NCBI GenBank assembly: GCA_964457525.1
Contig: CAYWGS010000010.1
Span: 1 to 27,875 of the forward strand
Source: an uncultured Erysipelotrichaceae bacterium
GTDB taxonomy: Bacteria > Bacillota_I > Bacilli_A > Erysipelotrichales > Erysipelotrichaceae
Reading direction: 5' to 3'
Length of the DNA stretch: 27,875 nt
Below, one piece after another: positions 10,673 to 25,737 of this stretch (positions within the stretch are counted from its first letter, which is position 1; every line of letters starts with the position of its first letter). A program made the translations under genes and the position numbers. Under the pieces are notes generated by a model. That model was not told the DNA's origin and ran no database searches. It saw nothing but the letters and a program-made list of their open reading frames with translations.

Positions 10673-11596
10673 ATGAAACAAAAATATTCAATCATTATTG
10701 ATTGTGACCCAGGCATTGATGATTCCTTTGCCCTTGTCTATGGTCATCTTTCAAATAGCTTTGATATAAAAGCGGTATTCAGTGTTGCGGGAAATGTTCC
10801 TATTGAAATGACAACCCTTAATTCAGAATTTATTCTCTCTGAACTTAATCTTAATGTTCCACTTTATCGAGGAGCAGAAGGTCCTATTGTTGGAGAACCC
10901 ATTATTGCGAAATATGCGCATGGATCCAATGGTTTAGGTGGTTATCAATTTGAACCAAACTTAAAAGTACATGCGAATACAAAGAATCCAACAGATGCTT
11001 ATTATGAGTTATTAAAGAGTTTTGATGAACCAGTAATTATTGCGGCGATTGGTCCATTAACCAATCTTGCGAAATTATTCATGGCATATCCTGATGTAAA
11101 TCAATACATCAAGGCAATCTATGTCATGGGTGGTGGAATTGTGAAGGGGAATTATACCGCTTCTGCAGAATTTAATATTGCGGCTGATCCATTAGCAGCT
11201 CAGATTGTGATTAACTCTGGGGTTAAACAATACTATGAACCTCTTGATACAACAACGGCTTATGGGTTCAATCGTGATTTCATGATGAAACTAAAGGATT
11301 CTAAACATCCTACATCACAACTTCTATTTAAGATAATTGATGCGAAAGAAAAACTCGATGTTAATCCAAATGCAGTTTACTATTTACATGATTTAATCAC
11401 TCTCATTGCGATTAATCATCCTGAATGGTTTGATTTTATCGATGTTCATATTGCGGTAGAACTCCATGGTGTTCATACAACCGGTATGACCATCTTCGAT
11501 CTTCGTGGTGAAAGAGCACAAAAACCAAATGCGATTTATGTCGCAAATCCTAAGTTTAGTGAGATTCAGAAACATGTCTTGGAGGTCTTAGTATGA
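10673..11596 (+). CDS. Nucleoside hydrolase (IUNH family), paralog 1
   Basis: N-terminal DCDPGIDD calcium/ribose-binding motif and a C-terminal LHD motif, 307 aa. Confidence 0.85.
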   Translation: MKQKYSIIIDCDPGIDDSFALVYGHLSNSFDIKAVFSVAGNVPIEMTTLNSEFILSELNLNVPLYRGAEGPIVGEPIIAKYAHGSNGLGGYQFEPNLKVHANTKNPTDAYYELLKSFDEPVIIAAIGPLTNLAKLFMAYPDVNQYIKAIYVMGGGIVKGNYTASAEFNIAADPLAAQIVINSGVKQYYEPLDTTTAYGFNRDFMMKLKDSKHPTSQLLFKIIDAKEKLDVNPNAVYYLHDLITLIAINHPEWFDFIDVHIAVELHGVHTTGMTIFDLRGERAQKPNAIYVANPKFSEIQKHVLEVLV

Positions 11597-12516
11597 TCGA
11601 AAAAATTCCATGTATTATTGATACAGATCCAGGGGTTGATGATGCATTTGCTATTCTATATGCAGCTAAACATCCCAAATTAGATTTGCTTGCGATTACG
11701 ACAGTATTTGGGAATGTAGGTTTACAATACACATCCAAGAATGCTCAACTCTTAGCTGGCTATATCTCTAAGGAAATTCCTGTTGCTCTAGGTCATAAAC
11801 AAGCCTTAGTGGTACGTAAAGAAGATGCGGGAGATACACATGGTTCGGATGGATTTGGTGGACGATATGAAACATACAAGCAAAATGCGAGTACTCGTCC
11901 CTATCATCCCAATTCAGTTCAACTTTTAAAAGAAACGCTTATCGAATCAAAAGAACCTGTTGTTTTATTCCCTATTGGACCTTTAACCAATATTGCGAGT
12001 TTATTATCAGCGTATCCTGAACTCAAATCAAAGATTCGTTGTATTAGTTTAATGGGTGGCGCGTTTGCCCATGGTAACCGTTCATCTGCAGCAGAGTTCA
12101 ACATTCTATCCGATCCAGAAGCTGCACAAATTGTGTATGAAAGTGGAGTGCCCATTGTGATGTCAGGCCTTGATATCACAGACCAAGCGAGTTTAAGTCA
12201 AACTGAACTTGAACGTATTCTAGAGATTGGTAAAGCAGATAGTAAATTACTATATGATATCTTTGGATTATATGCGAGTCATGATCGCAACTTACATGAT
12301 CCAATCGCAATTATGGCGATTACAGACCCTGAATTATTTGAGTTTGTAGACGTACATGTGGATGTTGAAACGGGTGGACATTTTGCAGTTGGCGCAACCA
12401 TTCCTGATTTCAGATCAAAAGCAAATCCTAATGCTAGCTTAGTCAAAGTAGCGATGAAATTAGATCATAGTGCATTTGTAGATCGACTCATTGAAATATT
12501 ACAAAAAGACGCATAA
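11593..12516 (+). CDS. Nucleoside hydrolase (IUNH family), paralog 2
   Basis: DTDPGVDD motif, NLHDPIA motif, 307 aa. It has an ATGA overlap with paralog 1. Confidence 0.85.
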   Translation: MIEKIPCIIDTDPGVDDAFAILYAAKHPKLDLLAITTVFGNVGLQYTSKNAQLLAGYISKEIPVALGHKQALVVRKEDAGDTHGSDGFGGRYETYKQNASTRPYHPNSVQLLKETLIESKEPVVLFPIGPLTNIASLLSAYPELKSKIRCISLMGGAFAHGNRSSAAEFNILSDPEAAQIVYESGVPIVMSGLDITDQASLSQTELERILEIGKADSKLLYDIFGLYASHDRNLHDPIAIMAITDPELFEFVDVHVDVETGGHFAVGATIPDFRSKANPNASLVKVAMKLDHSAFVDRLIEILQKDA

Positions 12517-12524
12517 TCATCACA

Positions 12525-12553
12525 AAAGGACAATACGATTTGTGTTGTCCTTT
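12525..12553 (+). other. Intercistronic hairpin
   Basis: 9-bp stem AAAGGACAA / TTGTCCTTT with an 11-nt loop and only a short T tail. Confidence 0.35.
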
Positions 12554-12567
12554 ATTGAAAGGAAACT

Positions 12568-13845
12568 ATGAATACCGATAAACGAGTCTTAAATCATTGT
12601 ACCTTACTCGACGAAGAAGGAAATATATACAGCGATAAAACCATTGTGATTCAAAATGGCATTATTGAACGAATAACCGATGAATTTATAGATGGGGAAG
12701 ATTGTTCCGGTTTAATAATTTCACCAAGCTTTGTGAACTGTCATACGCATGCCGCAATGAATATCTTCAAAGGGATTGCGGAAGATGTTCACATCGATGC
12801 ATGGTTTAATGAAGAGATCTGGCCATATGAAAGTAAGATGTTAGATGATGATGTAAGAGTAGGCACAAAACTTGCGATTGCGGAAATGTTAAACAATGGG
12901 GTTACTGCATTTGCGGATCATTACTTTAATCCAAAATCAATCATTGACGCAACCGAAGAGATGAACATCAAGGCTGATATTGCGATTACGTTGTTTAGTC
13001 AGTTTCCAGGTTATGAAGAACAACTCAAAGAAGCAATCAATCTCATACAATCAAGTAAGAAAGAAAATATCAACTTAAGACTCGGTCCACATTCACCTTA
13101 TACCTGTACAAGAGAGGCATTAAAGGAAATGAGTGATTGGGCAAAGAAGTTAGACTGTGGACTTCATTTACATGTATCTGAAACCCAAAGACAGGTCGAT
13201 GATAGTATTAAATTGCATGGCAAATCACCTTTACAAATCGTTTATGAAACAGGTTGTTTAGATGTTCCATGTGTCATTGCTCATGGATTATACATCCATC
13301 CGAATGAATTTAAGTTGTTAAGCGATGATACACTGATCGCATTAAGTCCAAAAACTTATCAAAAATTAGCGATGGGAACAGGGTATCTATGGGATAACTT
13401 AGATCTTGAACATTATGGTATTGGAACGGATGGAGCCGCATCAAGCAACACCTTATCCCCATTAGAACAAGCTCGTACACTCGCTTTACTACATAAACAT
13501 GAGAAACAAGATTCCACATTATCCGATGTTAAGTCAATCTGGAAACTACTCATGAACGGACATCGTGCATTTAAGTTCAATAGTGGTAAACTGAAGGTAG
13601 GTTACAGTGCAGATTTAATTGTCTGGGACTTAAATCGCATTAATACCATACCACTCTATAATCCACTAGCATCCATCATTTATAGCAGTGATTCATCCAA
13701 TATAAAAGCAGTCATGATTAATGGAGACTATGTTAAAGAAGATTATCATCTAGAAGTAGATGAACAAAGCCTTATTCAAGAAGTCCAAGTTCGTGTAAAT
13801 GACTTACTTGAAAGAGGTAAAGGAAAAGCAAAAGTACAATTCTAA
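12568..13845 (+). CDS. Amidohydrolase-superfamily nucleoside/nucleobase deaminase (MtaD/TrzA family)
   Basis: NCHTHAAMNIFKGIAEDVHIDAWFNEEIWPYE resembles the MtaD N-terminus. LHLHVSETQRQ, AHG and GIGTDGAASSNTL complete the metal site. Confidence 0.75.
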   Translation: MNTDKRVLNHCTLLDEEGNIYSDKTIVIQNGIIERITDEFIDGEDCSGLIISPSFVNCHTHAAMNIFKGIAEDVHIDAWFNEEIWPYESKMLDDDVRVGTKLAIAEMLNNGVTAFADHYFNPKSIIDATEEMNIKADIAITLFSQFPGYEEQLKEAINLIQSSKKENINLRLGPHSPYTCTREALKEMSDWAKKLDCGLHLHVSETQRQVDDSIKLHGKSPLQIVYETGCLDVPCVIAHGLYIHPNEFKLLSDDTLIALSPKTYQKLAMGTGYLWDNLDLEHYGIGTDGAASSNTLSPLEQARTLALLHKHEKQDSTLSDVKSIWKLLMNGHRAFKFNSGKLKVGYSADLIVWDLNRINTIPLYNPLASIIYSSDSSNIKAVMINGDYVKEDYHLEVDEQSLIQEVQVRVNDLLERGKGKAKVQF

Positions 13846-13871
13846 ATTGTGAAGTTATAAAAAGGAGAAAT

Positions 13872-14780
13872 ATGGGAAAAATAGTCATCGTTGGTAGTAT
13901 TAATATGGATTATACGGCTCTATTAGAAGAATTACCGAATCCAGGAGAAACGCTCATGGCGAAGGGATTTAAGATGTCTGGAGGAGGTAAAGGTGCGAAT
14001 CAAGCAATGGCAGCCGCAATCTTCTCAAAAGATGTCTTAATGGTCGGTTGTTTAGGAGATGATCCAGCAGGACATGCTTTATACGAAAAGATGAAGAACA
14101 AAGGCATTGATATGTCCTGTGTTGAATTTACACAGACACCAACAGGCAATGCATTGATTTATGTAGCGGAACAAGGCAAGAACACAATCGTTGTTTATCC
14201 AGGTGCTAACCAAGATTGTACACCTGCCTATGTTGAGAAATATCGTAGTGTTATTGAGAAGGCAAGTTTAGTGATGATGCAACTGGAAATTCCAATGGAA
14301 ACCGTTGAGTATGTTGCAGATATTGCATACAAAGCAAATGTACCGATTCTTCTAAACCCTGCTCCAGCCAATACACTTAGTGATGAGTTAATCTCAAAGA
14401 TTACCTATTTAACCCCAAATGAAACAGAACTCTTACGCATCACAAACCAATATGATGCGAAAAAGGGTGGAATTGTTTTACAAGAAATGGGTGTTAAGAA
14501 CATCGTCGTAACCCTTGGATCCAATGGTTGTTACATGAAGACTGAAAAGGAAGAAGATCGTATTCCAACTTTCAAAGTGAATGCGATTGATACAACCGCT
14601 GCCGGAGATTCATTCAGTGGTGCTTTAGCTGCTCATCTTGCAAAGGGGTATGAATTAAAAGAGGCTCTTAAGATTGCGAACGCAACTGGAGCACTTACCA
14701 CAACAAAGATAGGAGCTCAAGAAGCATTGCCAACCGAAGAAGAAGTTCATCAACTTATAAAATCACAAAAAGCAGAGTAA
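13872..14780 (+). CDS. rbsK: Ribokinase
   Basis: PfkB-family signatures GGKGANQA and DTTAAGDSFSGAL, 302 aa, in a ribose-releasing operon context. Confidence 0.85.
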   Translation: MGKIVIVGSINMDYTALLEELPNPGETLMAKGFKMSGGGKGANQAMAAAIFSKDVLMVGCLGDDPAGHALYEKMKNKGIDMSCVEFTQTPTGNALIYVAEQGKNTIVVYPGANQDCTPAYVEKYRSVIEKASLVMMQLEIPMETVEYVADIAYKANVPILLNPAPANTLSDELISKITYLTPNETELLRITNQYDAKKGGIVLQEMGVKNIVVTLGSNGCYMKTEKEEDRIPTFKVNAIDTTAAGDSFSGALAAHLAKGYELKEALKIANATGALTTTKIGAQEALPTEEEVHQLIKSQKAE

Positions 14781-14792
14781 TTCTGCTTTTTT
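14767..14792 (+). terminator. Rho-independent terminator of the nucleoside operon
   Basis: Stem AGCAGA / TCTGCT extended by A/T pairs, loop GTAAT, followed by a T6 run. Confidence 0.65.
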
Positions 14793-14822
14793 CGTCGAAA
14801 TATAAAAAAATACACTCTATAG
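14790..14822 (+). promoter_or_regulatory. Bipartite motif copy 1 (TTTCGTCGAAA-N13-ACTCTATA) in front of the sigma factor gene
   Basis: The 11-mer and the ACTCTnTA box are identical, and identically spaced, to the copy at 15335..15367. It ends 8 nt before ATG 14830, and there is no SD. Confidence 0.55.
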
Positions 14823-14829
14823 TATTAGT

Positions 14830-15333
14830 ATGAGAAATACAAAAGAAGAATTTGAAACAATCTATAACGCAACCTTTGAGACACTCAGTAAGCATGTCTA
14901 TTTTAAAGTCGCAAAGTTGGAAGATGCTCAGGATTTAGTACAAGAAGTCTATCTTGATTTCTATAAATACATTATTTCAAAAGGGAAACAAGTAGAAAAT
15001 GTACAAGCGTATCTTATTCAAATGGCGAATAATAAGTTATCAAACTATTATAAGAATAAAACTTTTGAGACAACTCTATTAAATGAAGATCATTTACTCG
15101 AAACAATTGAAGATGAGTTTGATCTCGAGTTCGATGTATTAGATCGAATCACATTAGATGAGATATGGAAAGAAATACAAAGTTATTCTAATCTAGACCA
15201 ACATATTCTGATTGATTATTATCGTTTTGGTTTAAATTTCAGGGAAATATCAGAACGATATAATATTCCTGAAAGTACAATTAAGAGTCGTTGCCAAAAG
15301 ATGATAAAAGAACTTAAAGATAAATTCAAATAA
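14830..15333 (+). CDS. RNA polymerase sigma-70 family sigma factor, ECF-like (regions 2 and 4 only)
   Basis: 167 aa. Region 2-like DAQDLVQEVYLDFYKYI; region 4.2 HTH LNFREISERYNIPESTIKSRCQKMIKELK. Confidence 0.8.
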   Translation: MRNTKEEFETIYNATFETLSKHVYFKVAKLEDAQDLVQEVYLDFYKYIISKGKQVENVQAYLIQMANNKLSNYYKNKTFETTLLNEDHLLETIEDEFDLEFDVLDRITLDEIWKEIQSYSNLDQHILIDYYRFGLNFREISERYNIPESTIKSRCQKMIKELKDKFK

Positions 15334-15334
15334 A

Positions 15335-15367
15335 TTTCGTCGAAAATAATAAATTAGTACTCTGTAT
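15335..15367 (+). promoter_or_regulatory. Bipartite motif copy 2 (TTTCGTCGAAA-N13-ACTCTGTA) in front of the anti-sigma-like gene
   Basis: See copy 1. It begins 2 nt after the sigma gene stop. Confidence 0.55.
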
Positions 15368-15388
15368 AAGTGAAAGGACTAGGTAAAT

Positions 15389-16381
15389 ATGAACAAACTC
15401 GAAAAAAGCATTCAAAAAAATGCGTTTAATCAAGAAGAGATGTTACTAAAAATTCAACGTGAAACATATGGCCTAAAGTCCAAAACACTTTTTGGAGGAA
15501 ACCCTATGAAAAAGATCATTGGAATACTAGCATTAAGCTTTACCTTAATTTTTGCGGTATGGTTTGGATTAAACCAACAAACACCAATTGATAAGGATGA
15601 AGTCGTATTGCTTGTTGGAGTTGATATCAATCCAAGTTTTGAACTGTCGGTTAATCGTAATGATAATGTCGTGAAGATTGAGGCATTAAATGATGATGCA
15701 AAAACCATTGATGTATCCGATTTACTCGATCAACCGGTTGAAGATGTCGTAGAAGAAATTATCAAAAGAGCTGAACAGGCTGGATTTATCAATATCGACG
15801 ATTTAGAAGAAGATTATGTTGTCGTATCATCGGTATCCTTAATCGATGATGAGGATGATCAAGATGATTTAGAAGATGAGATTGAAGATAAGATTAAAGA
15901 TAGTGAATACTTACAATCCCTCAATATCGTTCAAATCAAGGCAACTCAACGTGAAAAGTTTGAAGCGGAAGGGAAAAATGTTCCAGTTGGTTTATATGTT
16001 ATTAATGGATATGTTTTACAAGAAGATGGAACATTCTTAAGTGCTAAAGAATTCTTCTCTGATCCAGAAAACAAAGAAGCCATCCGTAATCGTTCAAATA
16101 TCACTGAAGAGAAACAAGAAAGACTACAATTACGATTAGAAGAAACATTGAATCAATTAGAAGAAAATGGATTTGATGTAACACAATATCGTTTAAGACT
16201 TGAAACAGCTGATTATGAACAAATGTTACAAATACAATCTGAATTAAAAGTAGAATCCAGAAATTACAACAAATCACAAAAACCAAAAGATGATGAGGAT
16301 GAAGAATCAGAAATAACTGAGCCGCGTGGTAATTCTAATGTATTGCCCAAAGAGAATAAAAACGCTGGCAAAGGGAACTAG
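15389..16381 (+). CDS. Single-pass membrane protein with an RsgI-like juxtamembrane ectodomain and an acidic low-complexity tail (putative anti-sigma factor)
   Basis: TM segment IIGILALSFTLIFAVWFGL, then VGVDINPSFELSVNRNDNVVKIEALNDDAKTI...EEIIKRAEQAGFI...YVVVSSV, which resembles the RsgI post-TM module. This is followed by DDEDDQDDLEDEIED and a K/E/D-rich tail. An alternative in-frame start at 15506 has GGAGGA upstream. Confidence 0.6.
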   Translation: MNKLEKSIQKNAFNQEEMLLKIQRETYGLKSKTLFGGNPMKKIIGILALSFTLIFAVWFGLNQQTPIDKDEVVLLVGVDINPSFELSVNRNDNVVKIEALNDDAKTIDVSDLLDQPVEDVVEEIIKRAEQAGFINIDDLEEDYVVVSSVSLIDDEDDQDDLEDEIEDKIKDSEYLQSLNIVQIKATQREKFEAEGKNVPVGLYVINGYVLQEDGTFLSAKEFFSDPENKEAIRNRSNITEEKQERLQLRLEETLNQLEENGFDVTQYRLRLETADYEQMLQIQSELKVESRNYNKSQKPKDDEDEESEITEPRGNSNVLPKENKNAGKGN

Positions 16382-16406
16382 AAAGAGATAATCTCTTTCT
16401 TTTTTT
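16381..16406 (+). terminator. Rho-independent terminator
   Basis: GAAAGAG / CTCTTTC stem with loop ATAAT, followed by a T7 run. Confidence 0.7.
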
Positions 16407-16438
16407 AGGTTATAATAAGTTTACGATTGAGGATCAAT

Positions 16439-17704
16439 ATGAAGAAATATTTAATCTGTTTAGTCATACTACTTTTAAGTGCTTGTGCGAGTGAGACAGC
16501 ACCCATAGAATCTGGAAAAGATCTTCGTTTTTATGTCGCAACGGATATCCATTTACTATCCAAAGACTTGATGAAAAACGATGAACTCATGGCACAAGTG
16601 TTTGAATATGGGGATGGTCGATTTGTACACTATTCCAATGAGATTATGAGTACATTATCTGATACCGTTAAGAATAATGAAGTTGATGTTTTAATCCTAA
16701 GTGGTGATTTAACACACGATGGTGAGAAAGCAAGTCATCTTGCGATGGCAGCTCAACTCAAGGAAATAGAGAAGAATGGAACACGTGTATATGTTGCGCC
16801 GGGTAACCATGATTTAGAGAATCCATTCGCAAAAGATTATGCGGAAGGTGGATGGGTTACAGCTGAAACCATCACAAAGGATGATTTTGAAGATATCTAC
16901 AAGAATTATGGTTATAAAGAAGCTATTTTAAGAGATCCCAATGGATTAAGTTACTTAGTTGCGCCTTCAGAAGATGTATATCTACTAATGCTCGATTCCA
17001 ATAAATATGGCATGTTAAATATGCCAACAGGGGGTGGAGTCATTAAAGAAGAAACGCTTGAATGGATAAAAGAAGCCACACAAATCGCACGAGATGCGAA
17101 TGCACAAATTATTACAGTGATGCATCATAATTTAATTAAACACAGTGAACGTCTCTATCAGGGATATGTTATTAATAACAGTGAAGAGGTTGTGCCAGTG
17201 TTTGATGAATTAGGGTTATCGATTGTGTTAAGTGGTCATATGCATGCACAATCCATTAAATCAACTGAACAAAAGAATCATACAATCTATGATATTGTGA
17301 CATCTTCAATGAGTATCTATCCAATGAATGTAGGTGTACTTGAATATAAAAAGAATGAAGGATTTAGTTATCATCTTGAATCCTTGGATATCGAATCTTG
17401 GGCAAAAGTGAATAGTACAGATCCCAATTTATTGAACTTCAATGCGTACTCAAAAGAAATGAACTATCTACAGAACTATAATCGAGCAGTTAGTTCCCTT
17501 ATCGAAGAAGAATATGATGTGGATGAGTCGCTCGTCTTGAGTGATGAAGTTGTACAACGATTGAAAAATGCGAATTTCAATGGAGTTATACGTCAAATCA
17601 AGAATGAATTACTTATCTTACATGGTTATAAAACAGAATCAGAGATTGAATCAATCCCAAGCATTCAACCTGTAACAGAGGTTGATATACAGGAACAAAA
17701 ATAA
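16439..17704 (+). CDS. Lipoprotein metallophosphoesterase (calcineurin-like phosphoesterase) with an uncharacterised C-terminal domain
   Basis: Lipobox LLSAC. MPE motifs DIH, GDLTHDG, GNHD, HH, GHMH. The start was set at ATG 16439 behind GAGGA. Confidence 0.75.
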   Translation: MKKYLICLVILLLSACASETAPIESGKDLRFYVATDIHLLSKDLMKNDELMAQVFEYGDGRFVHYSNEIMSTLSDTVKNNEVDVLILSGDLTHDGEKASHLAMAAQLKEIEKNGTRVYVAPGNHDLENPFAKDYAEGGWVTAETITKDDFEDIYKNYGYKEAILRDPNGLSYLVAPSEDVYLLMLDSNKYGMLNMPTGGGVIKEETLEWIKEATQIARDANAQIITVMHHNLIKHSERLYQGYVINNSEEVVPVFDELGLSIVLSGHMHAQSIKSTEQKNHTIYDIVTSSMSIYPMNVGVLEYKKNEGFSYHLESLDIESWAKVNSTDPNLLNFNAYSKEMNYLQNYNRAVSSLIEEEYDVDESLVLSDEVVQRLKNANFNGVIRQIKNELLILHGYKTESEIESIPSIQPVTEVDIQEQK

Positions 17705-25475: not shown

Positions 25476-25551
25476 GGACGCTTAGCTCAGTTGGGAGAGC
25501 ACCTGCTTGACGTGCAGGGGGTCAGGGGTTCGAGTCCCTTAGCGTCCACCA
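25476..25551 (+). tRNA. tRNA-Val (anticodon GAC)
   Basis: Hand-folded cloverleaf: acceptor GGACGCT/AGCGTCC, D arm GCTC..GAGC, anticodon stem CCTGC/GCAGG with loop TTGACGT, T arm AGGGG-TTCGAGT-CCCTT, encoded CCA. 76 nt. Confidence 0.85.
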
Positions 25552-25556
25552 TTGAT

Positions 25557-25633
25557 GTGCCCGTGGCGCAATTGGATAGCGCATTTGATTCCGATTCAAA
25601 AGGCTGCAGGTTCAAGTCCTGTCGGGCGCGCCA
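25557..25633 (+). tRNA. tRNA-Arg (anticodon CCG)
   Basis: Acceptor GTGCCCG/CGGGCGC (one G-U pair), D arm GCGC-AATTGGATA-GCGC, anticodon stem TTTGA/TCAAA with loop TTCCGAT, T loop TTCAAGT, encoded CCA. 77 nt. Confidence 0.85.
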
Positions 25634-25661
25634 TTGCATTTTGAATTAGGATATTCCAGAT

Positions 25662-25737
25662 GGGGCTGTAGCTCAGCTGGAAGAGCACAACGCTGGCAGC
25701 GTTGGGGTCGAGGGTTCGAGTCCCTTCAGCTCCACCA
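25662..25737 (+). tRNA. tRNA-Ala (anticodon GGC)
   Basis: Acceptor GGGGCTG/CAGCTCC with the G3:U70 alanine identity pair, anticodon loop CTGGCAG, T arm GAGGG-TTCGAGT-CCCTT, encoded CCA. 76 nt. Confidence 0.9.

What the first reader, a model, noticed from the sequence alone, without database searches (positions are those of the whole stretch)
14790..15367. Bipartite motif TTTCGTCGAAA-N13-ACTCTnTA duplicated at identical spacing before both the sigma and anti-sigma genes
An exact 11-mer TTTCGTCGAAA occurs at 14790..14800 and 15335..15345. In both copies it is followed after exactly 13 nt by ACTCT(A/G)TA (14814..14821 and 15359..15366). Two intergenic copies with identical spacing are very unlikely by chance. 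I found no third full copy by eye; two partial GTCGAAA hits inside genes lack the second box.

Two readings are possible:
- It is the cognate, autoregulated promoter of the encoded sigma factor, with -35-like and -10-like boxes.
- The 11-mer is itself a perfect inverted repeat (TTTCG-T-CGAAA) and could be an operator for a dimeric regulator, placed over a weak sigma-A promoter (TCGAAA-N17-TATAGT in copy 1).

Copy 1 ends 8 nt before the SD-less ATG 14830, which implies a leaderless sigma mRNA.
Basis: seen in the sequence. Interest (0 to 1): 0.66.

Follow-up and report, generated by a model that had tools for sequence, protein, structure and literature searches.

The report
Conserved promoter pair of sigma/anti-sigma operon
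The duplicated two-box motif is real and conserved in related bacteria; it is most likely the promoter read by the neighbouring alternative sigma factor, driving both its own gene and, more anciently, its inhibitor's gene, which is a well-known circuit seen here with an unusual recognition sequence.

Summary
TTTCGTCGAAA-N13-ACTCT(A/G)TA occurs at 14790-14821 and 15335-15366. The first copy precedes an ECF-type sigma gene. The second precedes a membrane anti-sigma gene with an RsgI-type self-cleaving (SEAL) domain.

Statistics within the window are weak, because repeated 11-mers are common there. Comparison with other loci settles it:
- About 12 distinct related loci (sigma 57-80% identical) keep both copies with the 13-nt gap unchanged.
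- Four more distant groups (42-50% identical) keep only the copy before the anti-sigma gene.
- Between groups, that copy's boxes are 84% and 73% identical, while its spacer is 32% identical.

No conserved RNA fold, Rfam match or further site was found. The palindrome is not kept in the copy 1 of relatives. The sigma-A-like -10 hexamer is not kept in copy 2.

Best reading: these are cognate ECF promoters, with cores GTC and CTC 18 bp apart. P1 gives positive autoregulation. P2, the older element, gives feedback through the anti-sigma. E. coli (rpoEp plus rseAp3) and C. glutamicum (the rshA promoter) have the same layout.

The leaderless sigma mRNA fits the geometry but is specific to this lineage, since most relatives carry a Shine-Dalgarno sequence there. 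Nothing here has been tested experimentally. This is a new member of a known kind, of modest interest.

The parts
14772..14792 (+). Intrinsic terminator of the upstream ribokinase gene. Stem GCAGA/TCTGC, loop GTAAT, then a run of six T. The last three T are the first three bases of box 1 of copy 1.
   Evidence: A hairpin plus T-run directly precedes copy 1 in all group-A relatives.
14790..14800 (+). P1 box 1 (-35-like), TTTCGTCGAAA. The conserved core is TTT-GTC-A.
   Evidence: PWM 31.2 bits. Conserved upstream of sigma in all group-A loci and in 2-3 group-C loci.
14814..14821 (+). P1 box 2 (-10-like), ACTCTATA. It overlaps a sigma-A-like hexamer, TATAGT, at 14818-14823.
   Evidence: Copy-1 box 2 is 95% identical across loci.
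14830..15333 (+). ECF-type sigma factor gene (167 aa). There is no Shine-Dalgarno sequence. The predicted transcription start falls at 14828-14830, so the mRNA would be leaderless or nearly so.
   Evidence: Start position confirmed by the ortholog alignment. Relatives carry AGGAG here.
15335..15345 (+). P2 box 1 (-35-like), TTTCGTCGAAA. It begins 1 nt after the sigma stop codon.
   Evidence: 29.5 bits. 84% identity between groups A-E.
15359..15366 (+). P2 box 2 (-10-like), ACTCTGTA.
   Evidence: CTC is invariant; 73% identity between groups.
15370..15379 (+). GTGAAAGGAC, which is invariant apart from one position. It is the predicted start region of the P2 transcript and the Shine-Dalgarno sequence of the anti-sigma gene.
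   Evidence: Alignment A2. It always lies 3 nt after box 2.
15389..16381 (+). Anti-sigma factor: about 42 cytoplasmic residues, one transmembrane segment, an RsgI_M/SEAL domain with an N81|P82 site, and a charged, low-complexity (probably disordered) tail.
   Evidence: PF23750, 82 bits. P82 aligns with residue 1 of chain B in 8HEP and 8HDJ. That chain B is the fragment left after RsgI self-cleavage is inferred, not stated in that output.
16380..16400 (+). Intrinsic terminator that ends the two-gene operon. TATAAT at 16411-16416 then serves the next gene, a lipoprotein phosphoesterase.

Best explanation
Both copies are most likely promoters read by RNA polymerase carrying the ECF-type sigma factor encoded at 14830-15333.

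**Recognition (inferred).** Box 1 (TTTCGTCGAAA, core GTC) would be bound by sigma domain 4 as the -35 element. Box 2 (ACTCTATA, core CTC) would be bound by domain 2 as the -10 element. The two cores are 18 bp apart. That corresponds to a spacer of 14-16 bp, depending on where the elements are taken to end.

**P1 (14790-21).** It transcribes sigma plus anti-sigma, giving positive autoregulation. In this lineage it should start at or within 2 nt of the ATG, so the sigma mRNA would be leaderless. P1 may also be read by sigma-A through TATAGT, which would supply basal expression.

**P2 (15335-66).** It transcribes only the anti-sigma gene, starting at its Shine-Dalgarno sequence. This makes the anti-sigma factor in excess whenever sigma is free. 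That would damp the response and replace an RsgI-type anti-sigma that is destroyed during signalling. P2 is the older and more constrained of the two.

**Shown versus inferred.** Shown: the conservation, the geometry, the gene families and the operon boundaries. Inferred: that the adjacent sigma is the factor that reads the motif, the transcription start sites, and the logic of the circuit.
For: 1. **Both sites are conserved at fixed spacing.** About 12 distinct loci with sigma 57-80% identical keep both copies. Loci with sigma 42-50% identical (groups B-E) keep P2.
2. **The conservation profile looks like a promoter.** For P2 between groups, box 1 is 84% identical, box 2 is 73%, the spacer is 32%, and the last 20 coding nt of sigma are 53%. 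The information content is concentrated on TTTCGTC.A and CTCT.
3. **The motif is exclusive to these two positions.** In about 297 kb of related loci, only these two positions score at least 16.6 bits. The runners-up are the reverse read of the palindrome and an antisense site inside an ORF.
4. **The genome-wide scan points the same way.** Of 119 stretches returned for a degenerate pattern, three lay at this sigma family's locus. The only stretch with two hits was that locus in the 2.0-Mb chromosome OW818653.1, and it was that record's only listed stretch.
5. **It is not a sigma-A -10.** The invariant bases are CTC, upstream of the TATAAT register. In P2 that hexamer reads TGTATA, GTAGAG, TTAAAG and similar.
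6. **It is not an RNA element.** The consensus fold is -0.8 kcal/mol, the z-score is +1.1, and there is no Rfam match.
7. **The geometry is consistent.** Box 2 is followed after a fixed 3 nt by GTGAAAGGAC (P2). In the closer relatives (sigma 68-80% identical), P1 is followed by AGGAG 8-10 nt after box 2.
8. **The sigma domain-4 helix tracks the motif.** It reads PE(S/T)T(I/V)KS(R/K) in groups with the motif (PETTIKTK in group E) and (S/P)ENT(I/V)KTR in groups F/G, which lack it.
9. **Terminators bracket the two-gene unit**.
10. **There are precedents.** ECF sigmas usually autoregulate, and their promoters are predicted in exactly this way (PMC7826278). Spacers of 14-17 bp are reported (PMC5758882). 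Sigma-dependent promoters placed before the anti-sigma gene are known in E. coli (rseAp3, PMC8595263) and in C. glutamicum (rshA, PMC3489674).
Against: - No transcription start, binding or expression data exist for any member of this family.
- The motif lacks the AAC (-35) and CGT (-10) signatures typical of characterised ECF promoters (PMC5758882).
- No target outside the operon was found, so a regulon is undefined.
- The consensus of box 1 is a perfect palindrome, and two lineages keep the dyad through paired changes: TTTAGTCTAAA and TTCCGTCGGAA.
- P1 box 2 overlaps a good sigma-A -10 hexamer (TATAGT or TATAAT).
- The link between the domain-4 helix and the motif is confounded by phylogeny.
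- Group F carries AGTCGATT only 6 nt from CTTCTATT, a spacing the promoter model does not explain.
Confidence: 0.74

Rival explanations
1. P1, and possibly P2, is an ordinary sigma-A promoter: TCGAAA-N17-TATAGT, giving a leaderless sigma mRNA. On this view the conserved extra bases would be incidental or modulatory.
For: - TATAGT or TATAAT is present in all group-A copy-1 sites, and TATACT in one of the group-C copy-1 sites (L182).
- TATAGT at 14818-14823 places +1 exactly on the A of ATG 14830.
- A terminator lies immediately upstream, so sigma needs some source of basal transcription.
- Groups B and C drive sigma from TGnTATACT-type promoters.
Against: - The -35 match is poor and varies: TCGAAA, TCGATT, TCTATC, TCCATC.
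- The consensus scan hit is no better than chance: 15 sites found against 18.9 expected.
- In P2 the hexamer in the same register lacks A2/T6 in most lineages, yet P2 is the better conserved copy.
- The invariant CTC and GTC bases have no role in sigma-A recognition.

This idea is best kept as an add-on, a dual-specificity P1, rather than as a replacement.
Confidence: 0.15
2. The 11-mer palindrome TTTCG-T-CGAAA is an operator for a dimeric DNA-binding regulator that controls the sigma and anti-sigma genes. Box 2 would be a separate element.
For: - The consensus is a perfect dyad.
- L167 (TTTAGTCTAAA) and L170 (TTCCGTCGGAA) keep the dyad through paired substitutions.
- A TetR-family gene lies directly upstream in some loci: L001, L003 and L006.
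Against: - The dyad is broken in 7 of 8 distinct copy-1 variants and 3 of 6 copy-2 variants.
- Conservation is asymmetric, with the left arm and centre stronger than the right arm.
- A4 and T8 are each common variants, so finding them together in L167 is not surprising.
- Half-site centres only 6 bp apart are unusually close for a helix-turn-helix dimer (general knowledge).
- The window and L005 have no TetR gene nearby.
- This model does not explain box 2 at a fixed 13 nt, nor the fixed distance to the Shine-Dalgarno sequence.
Confidence: 0.06
3. The conserved sequence between the sigma and anti-sigma genes acts in the RNA, for example as a processing site or a structure controlling translation of the anti-sigma gene.
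For: - It lies inside the P1 transcript.
- GTGAAAGGAC next to it is nearly invariant.
Against: - There is no conserved fold: -0.8 kcal/mol, with a single compensatory pair, and that pair lies in the Shine-Dalgarno region.
- The window sequence folds worse than its shuffles (z = +1.1).
- There is no Rfam match.
- The same two boxes recur upstream of sigma, directly after a terminator, where no upstream transcript is expected.
Confidence: 0.03
4. It is a chance repeat with no function.
For: Repeated 11-mers are abundant in this AT-rich window. A comparable two-box coincidence arises in 18% of simulations.
Against: The motif is conserved at two orthologous positions across loci whose sigma proteins are only 42-80% identical, while the spacer is neutral.
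Confidence: 0.01

Closest known systems
E. coli rpoE-rseABC, with two sigma-E-dependent promoters, rpoEp and rseAp3 (PMC8595263)
   Same: There is one sigma-dependent promoter before the ECF sigma gene and a second one that transcribes the anti-sigma gene on its own. This combines positive and negative feedback.
   Different: - A different ECF lineage and a different consensus: GTC/CTC here, not the E. coli sigma-E consensus.
- The anti-sigma here is an RsgI/SEAL type, not RseA.
- The internal promoter lies in a 55-nt intergenic gap.
- Nothing has been tested experimentally here.
Corynebacterium glutamicum sigH-rshA (PMC3489674)
   Same: Housekeeping-type promoters drive sigma plus anti-sigma, and a sigma-dependent promoter drives only the anti-sigma gene. 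The authors propose that this shuts the response off quickly. Groups B, D and E of this family show the same layout (group C adds a P1-like site).
   Different: - RshA is a cytoplasmic zinc-binding redox sensor, not a membrane SEAL-domain protein.
- The window's own group adds a sigma-dependent P1.
SigI/RsgI systems of Bacillus subtilis and Clostridium thermocellum (PMC10328401, PMC10556640)
   Same: The anti-sigma factor has the RsgI middle (SEAL) domain next to the membrane, with the Asn-Pro self-cleavage site and a charged, probably disordered tail. The operon has two genes.
   Different: - The sigma is a 167-aa ECF-type protein, not a SigI-type sigma.
- No RsgI_N domain was detected.
- From memory, the motif is unlike the SigI promoters (C-rich -35, CGWA -10).
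Autoregulated ECF promoters of B. subtilis sigma W/M/X/V (PMC5758882) and the ECF promoter-prediction framework (PMC7826278)
   Same: The promoter is bipartite with a fixed short spacer, sits upstream of its own operon and adheres closely to consensus. It was found by the same comparative logic.
   Different: It lacks the AAC (-35) and CGT (-10) signatures. The cores here are GTC and CTC.

Membership tests
ECF (group 4) sigma-70 family sigma factor | Only the sigma-2 and sigma-4 domains, in a protein of about 160-200 aa | tested here: met
   The protein is 167 aa. TIGR02937 scores 61.4 bits (cut-off 42.9). Sigma70_r4 scores 25.2 (cut-off 24.1). Sigma70_r2 scores 23.2, just under its cut-off of 24.
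ECF (group 4) sigma-70 family sigma factor | A cognate anti-sigma factor is encoded immediately downstream | tested here: met
   A single-pass membrane protein with RsgI_M follows after 55 nt. The pairing is conserved in every locus with sequence downstream.
Autoregulated ECF promoter | A conserved bipartite motif with fixed spacing upstream of its own operon across orthologs | tested here: met
Autoregulated ECF promoter | Transcription starts downstream of the -10 box and depends on the sigma | not testable with these tools
   No transcriptome or biochemical data are available. The start sites are inferred from geometry only.
Autoregulated ECF promoter | The common AAC (-35) and CGT (-10) signature (typical, not strictly defining) | tested here: not met
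   The conserved cores are GTC and CTC, against AAC and CGT in PMC5758882.
Sigma-dependent internal promoter for the anti-sigma gene (rseAp3 / PrshA type) | A second site matching the sigma's own consensus, placed between the sigma and anti-sigma coding regions | tested here: met
   P2 at 15335-15366 scores 29.5 bits. It is conserved in groups A-E.
SigI/RsgI system | An RsgI-type juxtamembrane SEAL domain with the Asn-Pro self-cleavage site | tested here: met
   PF23750 scores 82.4 bits. N81|P82 aligns with the first residue of chain B in 8HEP and 8HDJ. That chain B is the cleaved fragment is inferred. Cleavage itself was not tested.
SigI/RsgI system | A SigI-type sigma factor | tested here: not met
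   The top NCBIfam matches are all ECF-type models; no SigI model is among the 25 listed of 46 matches. The protein is 167 aa. There is no PDB sequence match at E <= 1e-3.
SigI/RsgI system | An RsgI_N anti-sigma domain at the N-terminus | tested here: not met
   Only RsgI_M (plus a sub-threshold DUF724 match) was found at E <= 0.01. The cytoplasmic part is about 42 residues.
Palindromic operator of a dimeric regulator | Dyad symmetry maintained across orthologous sites | tested here: inconclusive
   The dyad is perfect in 3 of 6 copy-2 variants and 1 of 8 copy-1 variants. There are two apparent compensatory cases and many dyad-breaking changes.
Palindromic operator of a dimeric regulator | A linked regulator gene conserved with the site | tested here: not met
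   A TetR gene is present upstream in L001, L003 and L006. It is absent from the window and L005.

The most novel reading that the evidence does not exclude
In this family of uncultured Bacillota (one group-B genome is labelled Erysipelotrichaceae), the oldest and most constrained target of the sigma factor is the gene for its own inhibitor (P2). In three of the four distant groups there is no sigma-dependent site within 400 nt upstream of the sigma gene; two groups (B, C) show a sigma-A-like promoter there.

The sigma specificity (GTC...CTC) would lie outside the usual AAC/CGT ECF code.

Positive autoregulation (P1) and a leaderless sigma mRNA would be later additions in particular lineages.
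Probability: 0.4. Interest if true: 0.45.

Novelty: new member of a known kind. Interest (0 to 1): 0.3.

Why it matters
- **A testable promoter for an unstudied family.** It gives a concrete consensus, TTTCGTCGAAA-N13-ACTCTATA, for an uncharacterised ECF sigma family. This family pairs with an RsgI/SEAL-type self-cleaving anti-sigma factor, a pairing studied so far only with SigI.
- **A route to the regulon.** The consensus can be scanned across complete genomes to find what this envelope-sensing system controls.
- **A design point.** The promoter in front of the anti-sigma gene is more conserved than the one in front of sigma. That suggests resupply of the anti-sigma is the key feature of the circuit.
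- **Possible use as a part.** Its bases differ from the usual ECF code, so it may be useful as an orthogonal sigma/promoter pair.

The circuit layout itself is already known from E. coli and C. glutamicum.

Tried and rejected
- **Regulon search, genomes.** All but the three sigma loci were single chance hits in unrelated taxa. A viral-collection control gave 24 single hits.
- **Regulon search, related loci.** A PWM scan of all related loci found no extra site. The best extra candidate, L157 at 14.9 bits, is antisense inside an ORF. The regulon therefore remains unknown.
- **RNA element.** The alignment fold, single-sequence fold and Rfam search were all negative.
- **Solved structure for the sigma.** No PDB sequence match.
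- **Copy 1 in distant groups.** A search with the spacing relaxed to 11-15 nt, over 400 nt upstream of sigma, found nothing in groups B, D, E, F or G.
- **Chance, using window statistics alone.** This turned out weak, at 37 of 200 simulations, so the argument rests on conservation instead.
- **Sigma-A promoter scan.** Hits in the region are no more frequent than in shuffles.
- **Group F boxes.** I tried to fit AGTCGATT-N6-CTTCTATT to a -35/-10 model and found no consistent register. This is left unexplained.
Full report
**1. The observation**

The window reads TTTCGTCGAAA at 14790-14800 and again at 15335-15345. Exactly 13 nt later come ACTCTATA (14814-14821) and ACTCTGTA (15359-15366).

- Copy 1 ends 8 nt before ATG 14830. 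That ORF is 167 aa and matches the ECF-type sigma superfamily: TIGR02937 61.4 bits (cut-off 42.9) and Sigma70_r4 above its cut-off.
- Copy 2 begins 1 nt after the sigma stop codon. It precedes the 330-aa ORF at 15389-16381. That protein has a short cytoplasmic N-terminus, one transmembrane segment and an RsgI_M domain (PF23750, 82 bits).
- There is no third copy. With up to three mismatches only these two sites match (0.05 expected). A PWM built later scores them 31.2 and 29.5 bits, and the next-best site in the window scores 10.5.

One correction is needed. The window contains 338 pairs of repeated 11-mers, against a simulated mean of 259. Some pair sharing an 11-mer plus at least 7 of 8 bases at the same offset appeared in 37 of 200 Markov simulations. 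The case for function rests on position and on conservation.

**2. Conservation in relatives**

A protein search found 45 relatives of the sigma factor at 44-99% identity. I recovered their loci in three ways:
- by exact-protein look-up;
- by a metagenome scan with a sigma alignment;
- as a by-product of a DNA-pattern scan of 185,579 species genomes.

The loci fall into groups.

| Group | Sigma identity to window | Loci | Motif before sigma (copy 1) | Motif before anti-sigma (copy 2) |
|---|---|---|---|---|
| A | 57-100% | window; L155/L156 (identical sigma; both motif copies identical); L157, L158, L071, L005, L171, L159, L001, L160, L003, L161, L162, L006/L007 | Yes, directly after a terminator hairpin | Yes, directly after the sigma stop codon |
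| B | about 50% | L125 (a MAG labelled Erysipelotrichaceae), L164 | No | Yes |
| C | 45-47% | L172, L167, L182 | Yes, about 100-130 nt upstream (degenerate in L172) | Yes |
| D | 45% | L166, L170 | No | Yes |
| E | 42% | L174 | No | Yes |
| F, G | 41-52% | several | No | No |

In every site the gap between the boxes is exactly 13 nt. In groups B and C a sigma-A-like extended -10 (TGnTATACT type) sits before sigma, in place of copy 1 in B and in addition to it in C. In groups B, D and E no site scores above 5 bits within 400 nt upstream of sigma, even with the spacing relaxed.

The conservation profile is what a promoter would give. For copy 2 compared between groups:
- box 1 is 84% identical;
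- box 2 is 73% identical;
- the 13-nt spacer is 32% identical, essentially neutral for this base composition;
- the last 20 coding nucleotides of sigma are only 53% identical.

Information content is concentrated on TTTCGTC.A and on CTCT.

The sites are also exclusive. In about 297 kb of related loci, only these two positions reach 16.6 bits. The runners-up are the reverse-strand read of the palindrome (16.3) and an antisense site inside an ORF (14.9).

In the genome-collection scan, 3 of 119 returned stretches were sigma loci of this family. The only stretch with two matches was the sigma locus of the 2.0-Mb chromosome OW818653.1, and that was the only stretch listed for that record. All other hits were single matches in unrelated taxa. 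A viral-collection control gave 24 single hits.

**3. What it is not**

*RNA element.* Thirteen diverse copy-2 regions give a consensus fold of -0.8 kcal/mol, with pairing only inside the Shine-Dalgarno region. The window sequence folds worse than its shuffles (z = +1.1). Rfam finds nothing relevant.

*Plain sigma-A promoter.*
- The invariant bases of box 2 are CTC, which lie upstream of the TATAAT register.
- In copy 2 the hexamer in that register reads TGTATA, TATAGA, GTAGAG, TTAAAG, TATAAG and so on. It usually lacks the A2 and T6 that sigma-A requires.
- The -35 register is a poor match and varies.
- The consensus scanner finds no more sigma-A-like sites in the region than in shuffles.

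*Palindromic operator.*
- TTTCG-T-CGAAA is a perfect dyad in the window. Only 1 of 8 distinct copy-1 variants and 3 of 6 copy-2 variants are perfect dyads.
- The left arm and centre are more conserved than the right arm.
- No regulator gene is consistently linked. A TetR gene lies upstream in L001, L003 and L006 but not in the window or L005.
- Two lineages do keep the dyad through paired changes (TTTAGTCTAAA and TTCCGTCGGAA), so I cannot rule the dyad out completely. In the first case the paired changes (A4 and T8) are each common on their own.

**4. Most likely mechanism**

The only DNA-binding protein that travels with the motif is the sigma factor. The motif has these properties:
- two dissimilar boxes;
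- a fixed gap and a fixed orientation;
- a fixed short distance to the downstream translation signals.

The conserved cores GTC and CTC are 18 bp apart. This corresponds to a spacer of 14-16 bp, depending on how the elements are delimited, and falls inside the 14-17 bp reported for ECF promoters (PMC5758882).

ECF sigmas usually autoregulate, and their promoters are routinely predicted from exactly this kind of conserved upstream motif (PMC7826278). The domain-4 recognition helix also tracks the motif. It reads PE(S/T)T(I/V)KS(R/K) in groups A-E (PETTIKTK in group E), which carry the motif, and (S/P)ENT(I/V)KTR in groups F/G, which lack it. That link is suggestive only, because it is confounded by phylogeny.

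I therefore read both copies as cognate promoters.

The operon is bounded by terminators at 14772-14792 and 16380-16400. The next gene, a lipoprotein phosphoesterase, has its own TATAAT at 16411-16416 and its own Shine-Dalgarno sequence. It follows that:
- P1 transcribes sigma plus anti-sigma;
- P2 transcribes only the anti-sigma gene.

*Predicted start sites (inference from general sigma-70-family geometry, with the last -10 base at -7).*
- For P2, +1 falls on an A at about 15373, at the start of the near-invariant AAAGGAC Shine-Dalgarno sequence. That sequence always lies 3 nt after box 2.
- For P1 in the closer relatives, +1 falls at the AGGAG sequence 8-10 nt after box 2.
- For P1 in the window, +1 falls at 14828-14830, on or 1-2 nt before the ATG.

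*Circuit (inference).* When the anti-sigma is removed, free sigma raises its own synthesis through P1. It raises anti-sigma synthesis through both P1 and P2. This caps the response and restocks the inhibitor.

The same two-promoter layout is documented for E. coli rpoEp and rseAp3 (PMC8595263). The layout with a promoter serving only the anti-sigma gene is documented for C. glutamicum sigH-rshA, where it is proposed to shut the response off quickly (PMC3489674).

Here the anti-sigma is an RsgI/SEAL type. Its P82 aligns with residue 1 of chain B in the RsgI structures 8HEP and 8HDJ; I infer that chain B is the fragment left after self-cleavage. The Asn81-Pro82 self-cleavage site described for RsgI therefore appears to be present (PMC10328401, PMC10556640). 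Such a protein is consumed during signalling, which makes a dedicated resupply promoter plausible.

P1 sits directly behind a terminator, so sigma needs a basal promoter. The TATAGT/TATAAT embedded in every group-A copy 1 may supply it. That would make P1 a dual sigma-A/ECF promoter (inference).

**5. The leaderless claim**

- ATG 14830 is the true start. Orthologs begin at the same place, and no in-frame alternative exists.
- There is no Shine-Dalgarno sequence in the 8 nt after box 2.
- Close relatives have ACTCTATAgtat(a/g)(g/t)gtAGGAG....ATG at the same place. The window lacks about 9 nt, including the AGGAG.
- The same sequence is seen in L155 and L156, which come from two separate sequence records, so an assembly error is unlikely.
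- Under both the ECF reading and the sigma-A reading, +1 falls at 14828-14830.

The leaderless inference is therefore reasonable, but it is specific to this lineage. Very short leaders recur in the family:
- about 5 nt in L003, L006, L161 and L162;
- TATACT-N6-ATG in group C;
- no Shine-Dalgarno sequence in group F.

**6. Comparison with known systems, and novelty**

The sigma passes the ECF-type tests and fails the SigI tests. The anti-sigma passes the RsgI_M/SEAL test but has no detectable RsgI_N domain. The motif lacks the AAC/CGT signature of characterised ECF promoters (PMC5758882).

The kind of element (an autoregulated ECF promoter plus an internal promoter for the anti-sigma gene) is well known. 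What is new:
- this particular consensus;
- its pairing with a SEAL-type anti-sigma;
- the finding that the promoter before the anti-sigma gene is the older and more constrained of the two.

I rate it a new member of a known kind, with modest interest (0.3). All functional statements are inferences from sequence and comparison, and none has been tested.

Noticed in passing
window 14822-14829, compared with L159 5981-5997 and L157/L005/L001: The window lineage has lost about 9 nt, including the AGGAG Shine-Dalgarno sequence that relatives carry between box 2 and the sigma ATG. L155 and L156, from separate sequence records, show the same sequence. In this lineage copy 1 has also become a perfect match to the family consensus (31.2 bits); close relatives read TTTAGTCGATT.
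   Followed up: partly
L125 2260-2291; L164 6514; L166 2572; L170 3429; L172 2035; L167 6514; L174 6514: In sigma groups only 42-50% identical to the window's, the motif is kept only between the sigma and anti-sigma genes (group C also has a copy before sigma). It is followed after 3 nt by (G/C)GAAAGGAC. In groups B and C the sigma gene is preceded by a sigma-A-like TGnTATACT; groups D and E show no clear promoter. The promoter for the anti-sigma gene therefore looks like the ancestral element.
   Followed up: yes
L165 about 1880-1925; L168, L008, L179, L173, L176, L177, L181 (upstream of sigma): Group F paralogs have sigma and anti-sigma genes only 9-12 nt apart and no copy 2. Upstream of sigma they have TATAAT, then AGTCGATT, then 6 nt (3 nt in L179), then CTTCTATT, then about 13 nt to an ATG with no Shine-Dalgarno sequence. 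The GTCGATT box resembles group-A copy 1, but the spacing does not fit a -35/-10 pair. This is unexplained.
   Followed up: partly
L172 1490-1524; L167 5970-6003; L182 1985-2019: In group C a TATACT hexamer lies exactly 6 nt before the sigma ATG. An AGGAGG lies too far upstream (about 24 nt) to serve as a Shine-Dalgarno sequence. That geometry predicts a leaderless sigma mRNA from a sigma-A-type promoter. A copy-1-like site lies a further 100-130 nt upstream.
   Followed up: partly
window 15629-15634 (residues N81-P82 of the anti-sigma): The anti-sigma contains VDIN|PSFEL. P82 aligns with the first residue of chain B in the RsgI structures 8HEP and 8HDJ, taken here to be the self-cleaved fragment. 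The Asn-Pro self-cleavage site of SEAL domains is therefore probably functional, yet the partner sigma is ECF-type rather than SigI-type.
   Followed up: partly
Sigma residues about 146-154 (window 15265-15291): The domain-4 recognition helix reads PESTIKSR in groups that carry the motif (A-E; PETTIKTK in group E). It reads SENTIKTR in groups that lack it (F, G). This may be a specificity determinant, but the link is confounded by phylogeny.
   Followed up: partly
window 16380-16442 and 16427-17704: A terminator follows the anti-sigma gene, then TATAAT (16411-16416), GAGGA and ATG 16440. This is a lipoprotein-like metallophosphoesterase with a cyclic-nucleotide phosphodiesterase C-terminal domain. 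The listed TTG 16427 start is probably too early. The gene is syntenic downstream of the anti-sigma gene in most group-A loci but has no copy of the motif.
   Followed up: partly
window 10673-14780, and L006 1-8034: Upstream lies a nucleoside-salvage cluster: two inosine-uridine nucleoside hydrolase-like genes, an amidohydrolase and a ribokinase. In relatives there are also ABC transporter genes and an ADP-ribosylglycohydrolase. Relatives carry extra genes between the ribokinase and sigma genes (a flavodoxin-like reductase and TetR, or DUF6036). Sigma's upstream neighbour therefore varies, while the motif stays.
   Followed up: no
window 25476-25737: A cluster of three tRNA genes on the + strand: Val-GAC, Arg-CCG and Ala-GGC.
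   Followed up: no
window, whole: Exact repeated 11-mers are common in this window: 338 pairs, against about 259 in composition-matched simulations. A shared 11-mer on its own should not be taken as evidence of a motif in sequence this AT-rich.
   Followed up: yes
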